Below the pieces are notes generated by a model. It saw only the letters and a list, made by a program, of their open reading frames with translations. It was not told where the DNA came from and ran no database searches. A stretch of DNA of 6,947 bases from a virus. Its lineage: Duplodnaviria > Heunggongvirae > Uroviricota > Caudoviricetes. Position 1 is the stretch's first letter, and each line of letters opens with the position of its first letter. The stretch lies in IMG/VR virus record IMGVR_UViG_2529292882_000008; one strand, 5' to 3'. The position numbers and the translations under genes are program-made. Below are positions 1,148-6,815 of this stretch, in pieces.

Positions 1148-2274
1148 GGCGGCGTTTTCTCCGGGTGTCTGCGATAATAATCTTCAACCAGCGCATCAAT
1201 ACCGCCGTTACTGTCGCCGCCTTTCCTGTTTTTACGGTCGCTTTCAACCGGCACCAGAAAGCCTTCGCGTGGTGCAAGGCTAACGCGGGTTTTCAGCCCG
1301 TCCTGGTCATTCAGTATCAGGGTGACTTTGCTGACCAGTAATTCCGTGGTTTTGATGGCATATTTCGAGGCATCAATAGTGACCAGCAGGTTCGGCATCC
1401 AGAGTTGCCCATCCTTGCGAGTCCATCCGTCAATTTCTGCCTCAAAGGTTATGGATTTTGCCAGTCTGCGGCGTTGCTCACGCAGGGCGCGGGCCTGTGC
1501 ATCCTTCGCCGTAATTTTGCTGTCAGCAATGATGATCATCGGTCTGTAACGGGTCACATCACTGTCAGTGGCGGTCCCTTTCCGGGAGACGATACTTTTC
1601 GCATCAATATCATCACCCTCAGCACCGTTTGCGCGGGCATACCCCTTGACGGTGTATTCGCTGAACCGGTCGCGGAAGTCTTCCTCAAAATCCAGTGTCA
1701 GCAGATTTTCTCCGAGAACCAGCTCATCAGTGGCTGTGCTGGCAGCCCGGCTGAATACCAGCTCTCCTGCGGCATTGCTGGTCATCAGTACACCGCGTGC
1801 GCGGGAGGCACGCACCAGCGCCTCATAAACGGTTTCTGAATGGTCCAGCGTAAAAGACGGAAACGGCGCGGTGCTTTCCTTGTCTGTCAGCTCCTGGCGA
1901 ACGGTAACGCCATAAGGAGCGCACAGGTCACGCGCAATCTGCTCCAGTGTGCGGTTTTTCCACTGCCCGCCACTGTAAACGGCAGCACAGTCAATCAGGT
2001 CAGCCGTTTTGTCACGCCCGGCAACAATGATTTTCATACTGTCAGCGGTCATCTGACGTCGCCGCGAATCGATATAACCGGTGCAGACAATCTGTCCCCC
2101 GATTTCCAGCGTGAACGCCTTCCCCGGTGCCAGCCCGGATAAATCCGTACCCGGTGGCACATTCACCCCCAGCTCAAAATATCCGGCTACGGATTCAATC
2201 GAGCGGGTGACAGAGACTGACGTCCAGCCGGTAAAAAGCCTGCCATCCGCTCGCAGCGTGACGGTATTACTCAT
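1135..2274 (-). CDS. Baseplate hub protein, phage late control D family (Mu gp44 / P2 gpD-like)
   Basis: 379-aa ORF with N-terminus [28 protein letters not shown], typical of Mu P / gpD-family hub proteins. Shine-Dalgarno GAGGTG (plus-strand 2279-2284) lies 4 nt before the ATG at 2274-2272. The start overlaps the upstream gene's stop by 8 nt. Confidence 0.85.
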
Positions 2275-3754
2275 TAATCACCTCAATACTGACACCACCG
2301 GGAACAAACAACGGGTTGCTGATACCGTTCCTGCGGGCCAGCCGTTGCCAGTTCCGGCTGTTTCCTGTGTAACGGTACAGGGCCACCATTGCAGGCATCG
2401 TCTCCGGCAGGCGGTGCGTTTCACTACCCGCCAGTTGCAGCCCACGTTTTTCCAAGTCGGCAACAACCAGCAGACGCAGTTGCGTAAGCTGAACACTGTC
2501 TGTCGAAAAGCCCTGCTCAGATGCCGTCAGAATGACACTATCCAGCGCCGCCCCCAGCATGGCAGCGGTTTTTCCGATATCGGACACACTTTCAAATACC
2601 GGGGGCGTGGCTGTACCACTGTCTGAAAAGGATACCGGTGAAAAGCCGCCGTCCGGGGTTATCCCGGTTAACTGCAACTGGCTTTGTGTGACCGTGGACG
2701 ATGTGCTGCTGGCACCACTGGCGATGCCGGTTGTTGTGACTGATACATCCAGCACCGGTGCGCGGGCGGCATTATCCATCTGACGGCTGGAATCCAGTGC
2801 CGCAGTCAGTGCCTGGCTGGCAGCCTCCGCCCGGTATGTCTGCGCCGCTGCCAGCATGACGTAGTTCAGTGTGGCAATATTTTTTTCTGCAACCGGGCTG
2901 CTGTATGAAGTGGTAATGGCACCTTGCCTGTCAGTGGTGGAGGCATGTCGGCTTTCGAACCGCTGCGCCAGACGGTTCCAGGTGGAAAATGCTGTCCGGG
3001 TATCGCATAACGATGAAACGCCGGACAGCGCCCCCATCAGCGAGGAGGCCAGCATGGCAGGCTGGTTAATCAGGCTGGTCACAGAGCCTTTCATCGCAGA
3101 AAGCGATCCCATCAGACCGCTGACAGTCTGCGTAACCCCCAGATTGTCCACCGCATCACTGATATCATCGATGACACCGGTGACAGCATCCATCACGGCG
3201 GTTGCCGCCGCAGTGCCATCTTTTACGGTCTGCCAGACAGAGGACAACGTATCCCCCAGAGAACCGGTTACAGCAACGGCCTGCGCAGATACGGCTGCAC
3301 TGGTGTCTGTCTCTGCGTCCGGGGCAGTATCCTGCAACGACGGATAAACGGTAACGGTGAACGTGTAATAATTCAGTTCATCCGCTTTAGTACGGCATTC
3401 CCATGAATCCACCATGACGTCCACAGTGCCGAAATCAGGATGCACCAGCTCACCGCTACCCGGAGCATCAAGAGCATCCATCAGCGCACCCGCTTCATCT
3501 CTGGCAGTCTCTGCGTTGCTGTTCAGAATGCAGACGCTGAATGTACGGGAGCGAAGCTTTTTCCCCAGGTCATTGACGCCGCCGGTATCACGTAACGGGT
3601 ACTCGCGTTTAACCAGACGACGTCCGCCAGCCTGTTTTTGCTCCTCAATGACGAGAAACGGCACGTTACGGAACGTGCCTTTGCCGGTTGTTTTCTTACC
3701 ACCGCCGATTTTATCCCGGACAGAATTAACGGCATTTAAAGCATCTTCAAACAT
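2267..3754 (-). CDS. Tail / DNA circularisation protein (Mu gp43 N-like)
   Basis: 495-aa ORF. The N-terminal ~120 aa ([18 protein letters not shown]...[19 protein letters not shown]) resemble the DNA-circularisation N-terminal domain of Mu-like phages. The central part is Ser/Thr/Ala-rich low complexity. Starts 4 nt after the tape measure stop. Confidence 0.8.
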
Positions 3755-3758
3755 GGTT

Positions 3759-5870
3759 TTACCAGCCTGTAATGTAGTTATCGCCCGCGTAAATATTCAG
3801 CCCCATACCATCCTCGGTGACGCGGGAACTGGTCAGACGTAATCCTTCGCCAAGCTCGACGCGCAGCGATGCTTCCGCATTCACTTTTTGCTCCTGCGGT
3901 TCCCTTTCCGGGGCCGTCCATTTCTGATACAGGTCAGTCACAAAACCGCCCAGATATTCCCCGGCGACACTGCCCAGCGTGGCACCGGCAACCGTGCCCA
4001 GCGGTCCGGCAAGGCTGCCAACAGCACCGCCGAGCCAGGCGCCGGCAGTGCTGCCAATTGCTCCGGCTTTTTCATGAGTTGATGCCTGTTCATCCATCAG
4101 AACGGGAGCAAGCTGGAGTGCCCCCATCACCGGACCGCCAAGACGTGACAGTGCACGACCCGCGCCTTTCCCCATCCAGCCCAGTGCCCCGGCCCCTTTT
4201 GTCACAACCCGACCAATGGCACTGTCTGCAAGTTTGTTTCCGATACCGGAAAACAACCCGCCAACGGTACGACCGGCACCAGCCAGCTTTCCGATTGTTC
4301 CCGTAACCAGTTGTCCGGCAGCACTGCCTGCAAGCCTGCTCAACAGACCGGATTTGCCGGGTAAAGGTAACGATGCGTGCCGTGTGGCACCCGGCGCACC
4401 GGGAGATGGCAATGCCAGTACCGGGGACGGTGCAGGTAATGCCAGTGGTTTCGGTGCTGGTAATGCGGGAACAGTGCGTGGGGCCGGAAGTGCCAGCGGT
4501 TGTGGCCCGGACAGCAATAACGGCTGGCGGGGCAATGCTGCCGGTGTTTTACCTCCGTATCGGGAAAATCCGCCATATCCACCGAACCCGTTGGGCCAGT
4601 TAGTCACAAAAACGCGCTGAACTGTCAGTTCCCGCAGTAGTTCTGTAGCAGGTAGCGCATCCGGTGCCGGAATGCCTGTCTGTCCATGTTTGCGTTTTCG
4701 CATCCAGCGCCACATACGACGCCCGGTTTTGAACGGATAGCTGGCAACCTGCCATGATGGCTTCGCCACGGCCCAGCCCGCCCTCAGTGCTTTATTGGCA
4801 AGCCAGACAGACACCAGAACAGCAGCCAGTTTTTTCAGGCTGACAATATTCTGGTCAACCCATGCCAGCGCATCTTTACCCGGTTTCAGCCAGCGCCATA
4901 ATTCCTGCGCCGCGATTTTTACCGTTCTGAACGTGGTCAGAAATTTCTGACCAATGTTTTCTGCCAGTGCGTCAAGCTCCCCGGATTTATCCGCCACATC
5001 GTGCCAGTTAAGCACCCGGCGCATCTCGTTCTTGATTTCTTCAAAGGGGCCGCTGTTTGCCACCTTTATGCGAAATTCAAGCAGGTTAGCTTCCATCTGG
5101 GCGAACATCCCGTCCCAGGAGTTCATCGCACTGGCCTGTGCACCTTTTGACTGTTCTGACAGCGTTCTGAATACCGTCAGAATGGATTTCAGACCCAGCT
5201 TGCCTTTTTCACTTTGTTTGCGGATATCCTTAACGTCTTTACCCAGCGCATCAGCCAGCGTCTGGTAAACGTTAATACCGTAACCGGTCAGCAGGTTGGC
5301 ATCCGCCGCTGTGATTTGCTGGCGGGCAAACATCTGTTTCAGTTGCAGTGAGGCACCCTGTGCAGTGGGTAAATCCCAGCCGTGCATGGCCCCCTGATCC
5401 TGCAACATGGTGATGAACTGCTTCGTCTGTTCATCCGTCATGCCAAAGCCTTTCGACGAGCGAATTTCATCCAGAACGCCGCCCAGCCCCCACGTGGTAT
5501 CCTTCGCGTTCTGCTTCGCCCAGGCCATCATTGCCTGCGCTCTGGCCTTATCGCCGTGATACAGCGAGTTCATGGCGATAATCTGCTGCTCACGCTGAGC
5601 GGCTGCACCAATAAACAGTTTATTGGCGGTGTAACCCACCCCAGCAACACCCAGCGCCCCGGCTGACAGCATTCGGAATGTACGGGTTGACAGAGAACCC
5701 ATTCTGTCAATGGCACCAGAAACGCGCACAACCTCCATACGCAGGGCACGAAGGGAACTTTGCCCACTACGGGACAGGGCGTTTATCTGGTTCGAATACT
5801 GGCGGGAACGCCGGGAAAGATTGCCATTAAGATCAATAATGACAGACGCCTTTAAGCGTTTCCCGGTCAT
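3759..5870 (-). CDS. Tail tape measure protein (Mu gp42-like)
   Basis: 703-aa ORF, the longest in the cluster, located between the chaperone and baseplate genes. The N-terminal half looks helical; the C-terminal half has a basic Arg/Trp patch, a Gly/Tyr-rich segment, LPAP repeats and a long glycine-zipper-like hydrophobic segment. Shine-Dalgarno AGGAAA (plus-strand 5876-5881) lies 5 nt before the ATG at 5870-5868. Confidence 0.85.
4386..4508 (-). repeat. Imperfect in-frame tandem repeats (period ~23-28 nt, about 4 copies) inside the tape measure gene, encoding (P)LALPAP-type repeats
   Basis: Plus-strand units ggcaatgccagtaccgg (4408), ggtaatgccagtggttt (4435), ggtaatgcgggaacagt (4458) and ggaagtgccagcggttg (4486). 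The encoded protein segment is [36 protein letters not shown] (about aa 455-495). Confidence 0.5.
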
Positions 5871-5884
5871 AGATATTTCCTGAT

Positions 5885-6055
5885 TTAACGGTGATATTGA
5901 GAGAGGGTTTTAGCCTGCTGGCAGTGCCGGAAAAAGCGGGACAGCGGAAGAGACAAGGCCCATTCCGGGCCACTTTTCAGAATAACGCCAATCGCTGTCG
6001 CCGCTTTCTCAATATCATTCCGGCACCGCAGCCACTCGCCCCCGTTCTTGCGTCA
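5885..6055 (-). other. Putative frameshift-accessed extension of the tail assembly chaperone (lambda G/GT-like arrangement); hypothesis only
   Basis: The +1 frame relative to the chaperone is open from just after an in-frame TGA (6055-6053) to a TAA at 5887-5885, about 55 codons (RKNGGEWLRCRNDIEKAATAIGVILKSGPEWALSLPLSRFFRHCQQAKTLSQYHR). It has no ATG/GTG start of its own and ends 14 nt before the tape measure ATG. Confidence 0.3.
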
Positions 6056-6449
6056 GCGATGCCGCCACAGCCATGTCGTGCATCTCTGTAGCCAGCGACA
6101 GACGCTGGAAGTCATCAACAGACAGCTTGCGCATCAGCGCCAGCGATAACGGGCCTTTGATGCAACCCACGCTGGCAATCTGTCGGCGCAGCATTTCCAG
6201 TCCCATCCGGGACGGGGAACTGACCAGCACCGGGCCTTCCTTGCTCATTACCAGCTTTTCAGCAGCCGCCTGAGCATCAATCAGATCGCCTGCGGTCAGT
6301 TCACGCAGTGTCACGTCATACTGCATTTCAGTCTCGTCACAGGTGCCGAACGGCAGGCCGTCTTTCAGTTTCAGCACACCGGACTGAAGCTCTGCCACAA
6401 TACTGTCACGCAGTTCCTGTGCTTCAGGACCTAAATTCATTTCGTCCAT
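6015..6449 (-). CDS. Tail assembly chaperone (Mu gp41 / lambda G-like position)
   Basis: 144-aa acidic ORF sitting between the tail tube and tape measure genes, the conserved chaperone position. Shine-Dalgarno AAGGGGA (plus-strand 6454-6460) precedes the ATG at 6449-6447. The assignment rests mainly on synteny. Confidence 0.65.
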   Translation of the reverse strand: MDEMNLGPEAQELRDSIVAELQSGVLKLKDGLPFGTCDETEMQYDVTLRELTAGDLIDAQAAAEKLVMSKEGPVLVSSPSRMGLEMLRRQIASVGCIKGPLSLALMRKLSVDDFQRLSLATEMHDMAVAASLTQERGRVAAVPE

Positions 6450-6458
6450 TGTTTCCCC

Positions 6459-6815
6459 TTATGCAATGCGTTTGCTTTGTTTTGCCATCAGTACCAGCGA
6501 AATTTCGCCGCCGTCGTTTTTCGGTTCATCTGCCTGCCAGGCATTCGCCATCATCCAGGTTTCACCGGTATCTGCCTGAAACTCTGCCGTGATGTTTTCC
6601 CAGCCGATGATTTCATCCAGACCGATATCACCACCGCCCGGAATTTTGCATTCCAGCTTTGCGGCACGGGGTTTACCTTTCCAGCCATAAACCCGCGAGC
6701 CGGTCACTTCTTCACGGGTGATGCCGGAAGGTGTGAAGGAGGCACCTTCCATCGTTTCAAGCTCCATGCCATTGACACGGATGAACGCCACCCCCTGACG
6801 CTGATTTCCAGCCAT
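6459..6815 (-). CDS. Tail tube protein (Mu gp40-like)
   Basis: 118-aa ORF immediately downstream of the sheath gene and upstream of the chaperone. Size and position fit myovirus tube proteins. Strong Shine-Dalgarno AAGGAG about 6 nt before the ATG at 6815-6813. Confidence 0.7.
   Translation of the reverse strand: MAGNQRQGVAFIRVNGMELETMEGASFTPSGITREEVTGSRVYGWKGKPRAAKLECKIPGGGDIGLDEIIGWENITAEFQADTGETWMMANAWQADEPKNDGGEISLVLMAKQSKRIA

What the first reader, a model, noticed from the sequence alone, without database searches (positions are those of the whole stretch)
5885..6055. Probable programmed translational frameshift joining the tail chaperone to an extension that fills the chaperone-tape measure gap
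This is the only sizeable intergenic gap in an otherwise overlapping operon (5871-6014, 144 nt). It has no start-codon-initiated ORF of its own on the coding strand, but the +1 frame is open for about 55 codons from inside the last 12 codons of the chaperone (after TGA at 6055-6053) to a TAA at 5887-5885, ending 14 nt before the tape measure ATG. That is the geometry of the conserved tail-chaperone frameshift (lambda G/GT, P2 E/E+E'), which is placed between the tube and tape measure genes. A shift would have to occur between 6052 and 6018; the rare-codon cluster CGG-GGG-CGA (6044-6036, a G5 run) is a candidate site. The -1 frame is also open but ends after only 13 extra codons (TGA at 5979-5977), so +1 looks more likely, although -1 is the commoner direction in this family.
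Basis: partly seen in the sequence, partly recalled or inferred. Interest (0 to 1): 0.5.

Follow-up and report, generated by a model that had tools for sequence, protein, structure and literature searches.

The report
Known phage Mu tail-chaperone −2 frameshift

Summary
On the minus strand the +1 (= −2) frame is open from 6052 to a TAA at 5887-5885. It fills the 144-nt gap between the chaperone gene (6015-6449) and the tape measure gene (3759-5870). The window is a Muvirus: 95% identical to D108 and 94% to Mu overall, and 96.6-98% across this junction. The sequence from the G-run to the tape measure start differs from Mu at one synonymous base. GenBank AF083977 annotates this joined CDS (Mu_56) as a "verified -2 translational frameshift", citing PMID 15469818. 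My comparison of 11 diverged relatives adds three results:
- CGG-GGG-CGA is kept despite rare synonymous codons.
- The extension frame stays open for 38-43 codons past the stop and ends near the tape measure start.
- Substitutions in the gap follow a coding pattern in that frame.

No conserved downstream RNA structure was found. The published direction is −2, not +1, which adds one residue (188 aa, not 187). Verdict: real, already known, low interest.

The parts
6459..6815 (-). Tail tube gene (Mu gp40/M homologue), immediately upstream of the chaperone
   Evidence: Pfam Tail_tube PF10618, E=3e-35. Annotated as tail tube protein in Mu and D108.
6015..6449 (-). Tail assembly chaperone gp41, the 0-frame product (144 aa)
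   Evidence: Pfam Gp41_Mu PF23746, E=1e-34, plus a weak Phage_TAC_7 hit. phrog_508, tail assembly chaperone. Corresponds to Mu_41 in AF083977.
6036..6044 (-). Slippery site CGG GGG CGA (shift octamer GG GGG CGA = 6043-6036). tRNA-Gly on GGG sits in the P site and tRNA-Arg on CGA in the A site.
   Evidence: Identical to Mu and D108. The published tandem -2 slippage site is GG GGG CGA. CGGGGGCGA is kept in 9 of 11 diverged loci, and GGG and CGA in 11 of 11, although each makes up only about 0.16-0.17 of synonymous usage in these genes. The G and R residues are invariant in the 28-protein alignment.
5885..6037 (-). Extension read in the -2 (= +1) frame, GAG 6037-6035 through TAA 5887-5885: EWLRCRNDIEKAATAIGVILKSGPEWALSLPLSRFFRHCQQAKTLSQYHR (50 aa). 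The full product is join(6449..6036, 6037..5885), 188 aa.
   Evidence: Translation. The peptide is 100% identical to the extension of Mu_56 / UIW09302.1. phrog_12783, E=9e-29. Conserved in length and sequence in relatives. Codon-position substitution pattern 206:94:348 in this frame within the gap.
5878..5881 (-). AGGA ribosome-binding site of the tape measure gene, 3 nt after the extension's TAA
   Evidence: Corresponds to the annotated Mu_42 ribosome_binding_site in AF083977. Sequence read.
3759..5870 (-). Tape measure protein gene (Mu gp42 homologue, 703 aa)
   Evidence: Pfam TMP_3 PF20155, E=1e-15. Annotated as tape measure protein in Mu.

Best explanation
This is the programmed -2 ribosomal frameshift of the Mu-type tail assembly chaperone gene.

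Most ribosomes translate gp41 (6449..6015) to its TGA and make the 144-aa chaperone. A minority behave differently. With tRNA-Gly on GGG (6041-6039) in the P site and tRNA-Arg(ICG) on the rare CGA (6038-6036) in the A site, they slip two bases back on GG GGG CGA. They re-pair on GGG GGC and resume at GAG (6037-6035). They then read 50 more codons to TAA 5887-5885, just before the tape measure gene's ribosome-binding site. The result is a 188-aa fusion, ...QERGR-EWLRCRN...YHR.

By analogy with lambda gpG/gpGT, the shared gp41 part is inferred to coat the tape measure protein and the extension to recruit the tube protein. On that analogy a fixed low ratio of long to short product supports tail assembly, and neither product stays in the virion.

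Shown here: the anatomy, identity to Mu's site, and conservation of the site and of the coding extension. Taken from the literature: the -2 direction and the experimental verification in Mu. Inferred: the roles of the two domains in Mu.
For: - The window is 95.2% identical to D108 and 94.4% to Mu over all 6947 nt, and 98% / 96.6% over 5700-6600.
- The junction alignment shows the G-run, the overlap and the extension identical to Mu apart from one synonymous base.
It spans the positions equivalent to 6449..5885.
- PMC3458567 describes tandem -2 slippage on GG GGG CGA with A-site tRNA-Arg(ICG). PMC5009743 lists Mu among -2 frameshift cases and notes the extra amino acid relative to +1.
- Database products UIW09302.1 and P0DJY4 are both 188 aa.
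- Comparative analysis: the GGG and CGA codons are invariant in 11 diverged loci (Kluyvera, Enterobacteriaceae MAG, Edwardsiella, Apirhabdus, Vibrio, Bilophila, Aeromonas, Aliivibrio, Pluralibacter). The upstream CGG is kept in 9 of 11. The flanks are not conserved.
- The -2 frame is open 38-43 codons past the 0-frame stop in every intact locus and ends -46 to +14 nt from the next long ORF.
- The extension peptides share a conserved LP(L/I/V)-R-x-L-(L/V/F)-R core.
- Substitutions in the gap are 206:94:348 by codon position in that frame.
- The -1 frame end is not conserved.
Against: - Nothing in the window contradicts the explanation.
- Sequence analysis alone cannot separate -2 from +1. That rests on the cited literature, and I could not read the primary paper.
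- No stimulatory RNA structure is detectable downstream. The z-score is +0.37 for 6050-5940, and RNAalifold found no consensus structure across 11 lineages. How efficiency is set is therefore not explained here.
- Two lineages (Salmonella L037-39, CAG GGG CGA; Edwardsiella L027, TCG GGG CGA) keep the extension with only four Gs. That weakens P-site re-pairing after a -2 slip and leaves room for another direction in those relatives.
- GenBank and UniProt disagree on the junction residue, R versus G.
Confidence: 0.93

Rival explanations
1. A +1 ribosomal frameshift. With GGG in the P site and the slow CGA codon in the A site, tRNA-Gly shifts forward from GGG to GGC. Reading resumes at GAG and gives a 187-aa product...QERG-EWL...
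For: It reaches the same frame and uses the same rare-codon context. Relatives with only four Gs (L027, L037-39) keep a separate extension frame although a -2 P-site re-pairing would have a first-position mismatch.
Against: The literature and GenBank call the Mu event a verified -2 shift, and both curated products have 188 aa. The two Gs upstream of GGG are not needed for a +1 slip. Yet they are kept as the rare CGG codon in 9 of 11 diverged loci and as GGG in a tenth, where CGG is about 0.16 of Arg codons in these genes.
Confidence: 0.04
2. The extension is an independent small gene ('41.5', as annotated in D108), initiated on its own at a non-canonical CTG (6031) or at the TTG at 5956.
For: D108 records annotate a separate 48-aa CDS named 41.5 (P0043). 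A 54-position PHROG family, phrog_12783, exists for such ORFs.
Against: The frame has no ATG or GTG. The only canonical start is a TTG that would give 23 aa. The D108 start corresponds to a CTG with no annotated ribosome-binding site. The frame opens only 35 nt before the 0-frame stop and always contains the conserved slippery nonamer. The curated Mu record replaces this reading with the joined CDS.
Confidence: 0.02
3. The frame change happens at the nucleic-acid level, by RNA polymerase slippage or DNA heterogeneity at the G5 run (loss of one G), not on the ribosome.
For: Several assemblies carry G4 and an in-frame fused 187-aa gene: L040, L026, L023 and L036, and proteins P0001, P0002 and P0047.
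Against: Five Gs is shorter than the runs usually linked to productive transcriptional slippage (general knowledge). At least one fused case (L036) sits in a long-read assembly whose sheath and tape measure genes are also fragmented, which indicates homopolymer errors. L023 has a second frame break inside the extension. Loss of one G would give 187 aa, not the 188 aa recorded for Mu. The invariant CGA after the run has no role in this model.
Confidence: 0.01

Closest known systems
Phage Mu gp41 / FS-gp41 (Mu_41 / Mu_56; UniProt P0DJY4), the -2 frameshift described by Xu, Hendrix & Duda 2004, PMID 15469818
   Same: Same genes in the same order (tube, gp41, tape measure). The slippery nonamer CGGGGGCGA is identical, as are the overlap and the 50-aa extension peptide. 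The junction is 96.6% identical in DNA to Mu and 98% to D108.
   Different: Only strain-level substitutions. There are a few amino-acid changes in the gp41 body (for example R14/H, L21/I, C38/G, H124/Y) and one synonymous base in the extension.
Lambda gpG/gpGT tail assembly chaperone frameshift
   Same: Position between the major tail/tube gene and the tape measure gene. A short product is made along with a C-terminally extended minor product from an overlapping frame that lacks its own start. The mechanism of action is presumed the same: the chaperone part binds the tape measure and the extension binds the tube subunit (for lambda).
   Different: Lambda shifts -1 on a classical heptamer, G GGA AAG (from memory). 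Here the shift is -2 on GG GGG CGA. There is no detectable sequence similarity to lambda G or T (only Gp41_Mu and Phage_TAC_7 were hit). The virus is a myovirus, not a siphovirus.
P2 gpE / gpE+E' (Pfam Phage_TAC_7, PF10109)
   Same: The chaperone pair of a contractile-tailed phage, in the same gene position. Weak family resemblance: the Phage_TAC_7 hit scores 23.6 bits, just below the 25-bit cutoff.
   Different: P2 uses a -1 shift on a T-rich run (from memory). The sequence similarity is sub-threshold.

Membership tests
Mu-type tail assembly chaperone with -2 programmed frameshift (gp41 / FS-gp41) | The upstream ORF is a Gp41_Mu-family protein | tested here: met
   PF23746 Gp41_Mu, E=1.2e-34, 119 bits against a cutoff of 27. 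phrog_508.
Mu-type tail assembly chaperone with -2 programmed frameshift (gp41 / FS-gp41) | [quoted passage not shown] | tested here: met
   Present at 6043-6036, 26 nt before the stop, and identical to Mu and D108. The published site is quoted.
Mu-type tail assembly chaperone with -2 programmed frameshift (gp41 / FS-gp41) | The -2/+1 frame is open from the site to just before the tape measure gene and encodes the conserved extension | tested here: met
   The 50-codon extension is 100% identical to that of Mu_56. It is conserved in 11 diverged loci with a coding substitution pattern.
Mu-type tail assembly chaperone with -2 programmed frameshift (gp41 / FS-gp41) | The long product is actually made, with the extra residue that marks a -2 shift | not testable with these tools
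   Reported as verified for Mu in the GenBank note and in reviews. The primary paper is not held. No protein data exist for this particular phage.
Conserved tail-chaperone frameshift of tailed phages (lambda G/GT class) | Two overlapping ORFs lie between the major tail/tube gene and the tape measure gene, and the second lacks its own start | tested here: met
   Gene order is tube 6459-6815, chaperone 6015-6449, extension, tape measure 3759-5870. No ATG or GTG in the extension frame.
Conserved tail-chaperone frameshift of tailed phages (lambda G/GT class) | Canonical -1 heptamer X XXY YYZ | tested here: not met
   The -1 frame ends after 13 extra codons in the window, and its end point is not conserved in relatives. 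The shift here is -2. Mu is the documented exception within this functional class.
Conserved tail-chaperone frameshift of tailed phages (lambda G/GT class) | Downstream stimulatory RNA structure | tested here: not met
   No structure beyond shuffles in the window (z=+0.37). No consensus structure across 11 lineages. This is not a universal requirement of the class.

The most novel reading that the evidence does not exclude
The shift direction may not be fixed within this chaperone family. Salmonella and Edwardsiella prophage relatives keep the separate extension frame but have only four Gs (CAG GGG CGA, TCG GGG CGA). If so, homologous sites a few substitutions apart would use opposite directions of ribosome movement to reach the same frame. 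In the window itself, a minor +1 or -1 product alongside the -2 product is likewise not excluded.
Probability: 0.2. Interest if true: 0.4.

Novelty: already known. Interest (0 to 1): 0.08.

Why it matters
For this window the result matters only for annotation. The 144-nt "gap" is coding, and the correct annotation is a joined CDS, join(6449..6036, 6037..5885) on the minus strand, giving a 188-aa FS-gp41 beside the 144-aa gp41.

Many deposited Mu-like genomes miss this. D108 calls a separate gene 41.5, RefSeq Mu lists only one chaperone, and the Yersinia phages list hypothetical proteins.

Biologically this is the textbook rare case of a -2 programmed frameshift in bacteria, so finding it again adds no new knowledge. 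The small added value is the comparative evidence that the nonamer CGGGGGCGA and the extension are conserved from Enterobacteriaceae to Vibrio, Aeromonas and Bilophila prophages, with no conserved RNA structure.

Tried and rejected
- **Primary sources.** I tried to read Xu et al. 2004 and Baranov et al. 2006. Neither is held, so I relied on the GenBank note and on two open papers that describe the site.
- **Stimulatory RNA structure.** I looked downstream of the site. The single-sequence fold is no better than shuffles. Per-lineage folds are mixed and RNAalifold gives no consensus. I rejected this as a conserved feature.
- **The -1 frame.** It gives only 13 extra codons here, and its end point varies widely in relatives. 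Rejected.
- **An independent start for the extension.** The frame offers only a 23-aa TTG ORF, and the D108 annotation starts at a CTG. Rejected.
- **Pfam on the extension alone.** No family at E≤1. Only phrog_12783, of unknown function, matched.
- **In-frame fused 187/199-aa proteins in the protein database.** I checked whether P0001, P0002 and P0007 show a natural fusion. L036 is clearly an error-ridden long-read assembly. L023 has a second frameshift. L040 and L026 cannot be resolved. I did not use them as evidence.
- **Searches that found only close relatives.** The single-protein scan of viral contigs returned only relatives at 92-98% identity. The alignment-based genome scan was needed to reach diverged loci.
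- **Two literature searches failed on term syntax**.

Full report
**What is in the window.** All long ORFs lie on the minus strand and form a Mu-type tail and baseplate block:

| Coordinates | Product | Pfam evidence |
|---|---|---|
| 6459-6815 | tail tube | PF10618 |
| 6015-6449 | tail assembly chaperone gp41 | PF23746 Gp41_Mu, E=1e-34 |
| 3759-5870 | tape measure | PF20155 |
| 2267-3754 | DNA circularisation / tube initiator protein | PF07157 |
| 1135-2274 | baseplate hub | gp44-like |
| 554-1147 | spike | gp45 |
| 120-557 | gp46 | PF07409 |

The whole window is 95.2% identical to phage D108 and 94.4% to Mu. The stretch 5700-6600 is 98.0% identical to D108 and 96.6% to Mu. The window therefore comes from a member of the species Muvirus mu or a very close relative.

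**Check of the observation.**
- The gp41 stop is TGA 6017-6015 and the tape measure ATG is at 5870, leaving a gap of 144 nt.
- In the +1 frame there is a TGA at 6055-6053, then 55 open codons to TAA 5887-5885, 14 nt before the ATG.
- The -1 frame ends at TGA 5979-5977.
- CGG GGG CGA is at 6044-6036.
- The extension frame has no ATG or GTG. Its only canonical start is a TTG at 5956, giving 23 aa.

The open stretch by itself is not statistically remarkable. Inside this window's own genes the +1 frame has 0.044 stops per codon, and 7 of 99 stop-free runs reach 55 codons. The chance of 49 stop-free codons is about 0.11. The case rests on geometry, conservation and identity with a characterised site.

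**Identity with the known Mu frameshift.** Aligning the junction with Mu (AF083977) and D108 (GQ357916) shows that the G-run, the overlap with the gp41 stop, the extension and the tape measure ribosome-binding site are all conserved. Only one base in the extension differs from Mu, and it is synonymous.

The curated Mu record carries two CDS that start at the same position:
- Mu_41, the 144-aa tail assembly chaperone.
- Mu_56, joined from two pieces and ending at the position equivalent to 5885. Its note reads [quoted passage not shown].

PMC3458567 states that this was the one documented -2 signal at that date. It describes tandem -2 slippage on GG GGG CGA, where the A-site tRNA-Arg (anticodon 3'-GCI-5') pairs better after slippage in the -2 frame than in the -1 frame. 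The review PMC5009743 lists Mu among -2 frameshift cases and notes that -2 adds one amino acid compared with +1.

Exact-sequence look-ups show both curated Mu products have 188 aa. GenBank UIW09302.1 reads ...QERG-R-EWLRC..., and UniProt P0DJY4 reads ...QERG-G-EWLRC... The 187-aa +1 product built from the Mu sequence is not in the collection. The extension peptide of the window is identical to that of Mu.

**Independent comparative test.** A protein search gave gp41 relatives down to about 44% identity. In the alignment of 28 of them, G137 and R138 are invariant and R136 is nearly so. These are the residues encoded by the slippery site, and they sit in an otherwise variable C-terminus.

A genome scan with that alignment returned 14 diverged loci. 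They come from Kluyvera, an Enterobacteriaceae MAG, Erwinia, Edwardsiella, Apirhabdus, Vibrio, Bilophila, Aeromonas, Aliivibrio and Pluralibacter. The results were:
- **Frame stays open.** In every intact locus the +1/-2 frame stays open 38-43 codons beyond the 0-frame stop. It ends between -46 and +14 nt from the start of the next long ORF. The end of the -1 frame varies widely.
- **Site is conserved.** The nonamer CGGGGGCGA is exact in 9 of 11 diverged loci, with unrelated flanks. GGG and CGA are used in 11 of 11 and CGG in 9 of 11. Elsewhere in these genes each of those codons makes up only about 0.16-0.17 of its synonymous family. This is the synonymous-site constraint expected of a slippery site. 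The conserved GG upstream of GGG is needed for a backward slip, not for a forward one.
- **Extension peptides are related.** The enterobacterial pattern is EWLxCRxxIExAAxAxGVxxKxGPEWALxLPLSRxFRHCxQA. All lineages, including Bilophila, Aeromonas and Pluralibacter, share an LP(L/I/V)-R-x-L-(L/V/F)-R core.
- **Gap evolves as coding sequence.** Among seven enterobacterial sequences, differences within the gap fall 206:94:348 on codon positions 1:2:3 of the extension frame. Variable columns are 23, 13 and 32 out of 37 each.

Those were stops in the +1 frame of homologous junctions, or no conservation of the extension.

**Mechanism.**
- *Shown.* A Gp41_Mu chaperone ORF carries GG GGG CGA 26 nt before its stop, and a conserved 50-codon ORF in the -2/+1 frame ends 3 nt before the tape measure ribosome-binding site AGGA (5881-5878).
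- *From the literature.* A fraction of ribosomes slip back two bases with tRNA-Gly and tRNA-Arg in the P and A sites, giving a 188-aa product.
- *Inferred by analogy with lambda gpG/gpGT.* The common gp41 part binds the tape measure protein and the extension recruits the tube protein, and both are absent from the finished tail. The Mu cryo-EM study could not resolve gp41 in virions and only suggests it is a chaperone.
- *Not found.* I saw no stimulatory RNA element. The 111 nt from 6050 to 5940 fold no better than shuffles (z=+0.37). Eleven lineages share no consensus structure. Flanking sequence is not conserved beyond the nonamer.

**Rival explanations.**
- *A +1 shift* reaches the same frame. 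It is contradicted by the published -2 assignment and the 188-aa products. It also does not explain the conserved upstream GG.
- *Independent initiation of a gene '41.5'*, as annotated in D108 from a CTG, has no canonical start and no support from the conserved overlap.
- *Transcript- or DNA-level loss of a G* is suggested by G4 fused genes in some assemblies. One of these (L036) is an error-ridden long-read assembly, and another (L023) has a second frame break. This model would also give 187 aa.

**Verdict.** Only the physical direction differs: -2, not +1. It is already known and experimentally verified in Mu, and the window is essentially a Mu/D108 variant. Interest is low. The practical outcome is the correct joined-CDS annotation.

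Noticed in passing
L037-L039 positions ~1923-1932 (Salmonella enterica prophages); L027 ~1548-1557 (Edwardsiella anguillarum): These gp41 relatives keep a separate, conserved extension frame, but the site has only four Gs: CAG GGG CGA and TCG GGG CGA. A -2 slip would leave a first-position mismatch for the P-site tRNA. Direction or efficiency may differ from Mu in these lineages.
   Followed up: partly
L040 ~1904-1913; L026 ~1598-1607; L023 ~1580-1589; L036 ~1943-1952; proteins P0001, P0002, P0007, P0047: Several assemblies have CGGGGCGA (one G fewer). gp41 and the extension then form a single in-frame 187/199-aa gene. L036 is a long-read assembly with fragmented sheath and tape measure genes, and L023 has a second frame break, so homopolymer errors or decaying prophages are likely. 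L040 has intact neighbours and remains unresolved.
   Followed up: partly
Mu products UIW09302.1 (P0041) and UniProt P0DJY4 (P0042); equivalent to window 6038-6036: The two curated sequences of the Mu frameshift product differ at the junction residue. GenBank has ...QERG-R-EWL (tandem slip after Arg is decoded). UniProt has ...QERG-G-EWL (GGC read after the slip). Both are 188 aa.
   Followed up: partly
L002 870-1016 (D108 gene 41.5), equivalent to window 6031-5885; also rows H2, H3, H7, H9 and H11-H14: Annotation of this feature is inconsistent across deposited Mu-like genomes. D108 calls a free-standing 48-aa '41.5' from a CTG codon. RefSeq Mu and SfMu list only one chaperone CDS. The Yersinia Mu-like phages list hypothetical proteins. 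Only AF083977 carries the joined frameshift CDS.
   Followed up: yes
L012, L019-L021, ~54 nt after the gp41 stop (equivalent to window ~5961): In these close relatives the 0-frame stop inside the gap (TAA within GGC TAA AAC in the window) is absent. An ATG in the gap is therefore in frame with the tape measure ORF and could mislead gene callers into an N-terminally extended tape measure protein. The extension peptide is unchanged or has a V-to-I change, so the substitution is presumably silent in the -2 frame; I did not read the base itself.
   Followed up: partly
window 6015-6449 (-), Pfam hits: gp41 also hits Phage_TAC_7 (the P2 gpE family) at 23.6 bits, just under the 25-bit cutoff. This hints that the Mu and P2 chaperones are distant relatives even though they use different shift directions.
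   Followed up: no
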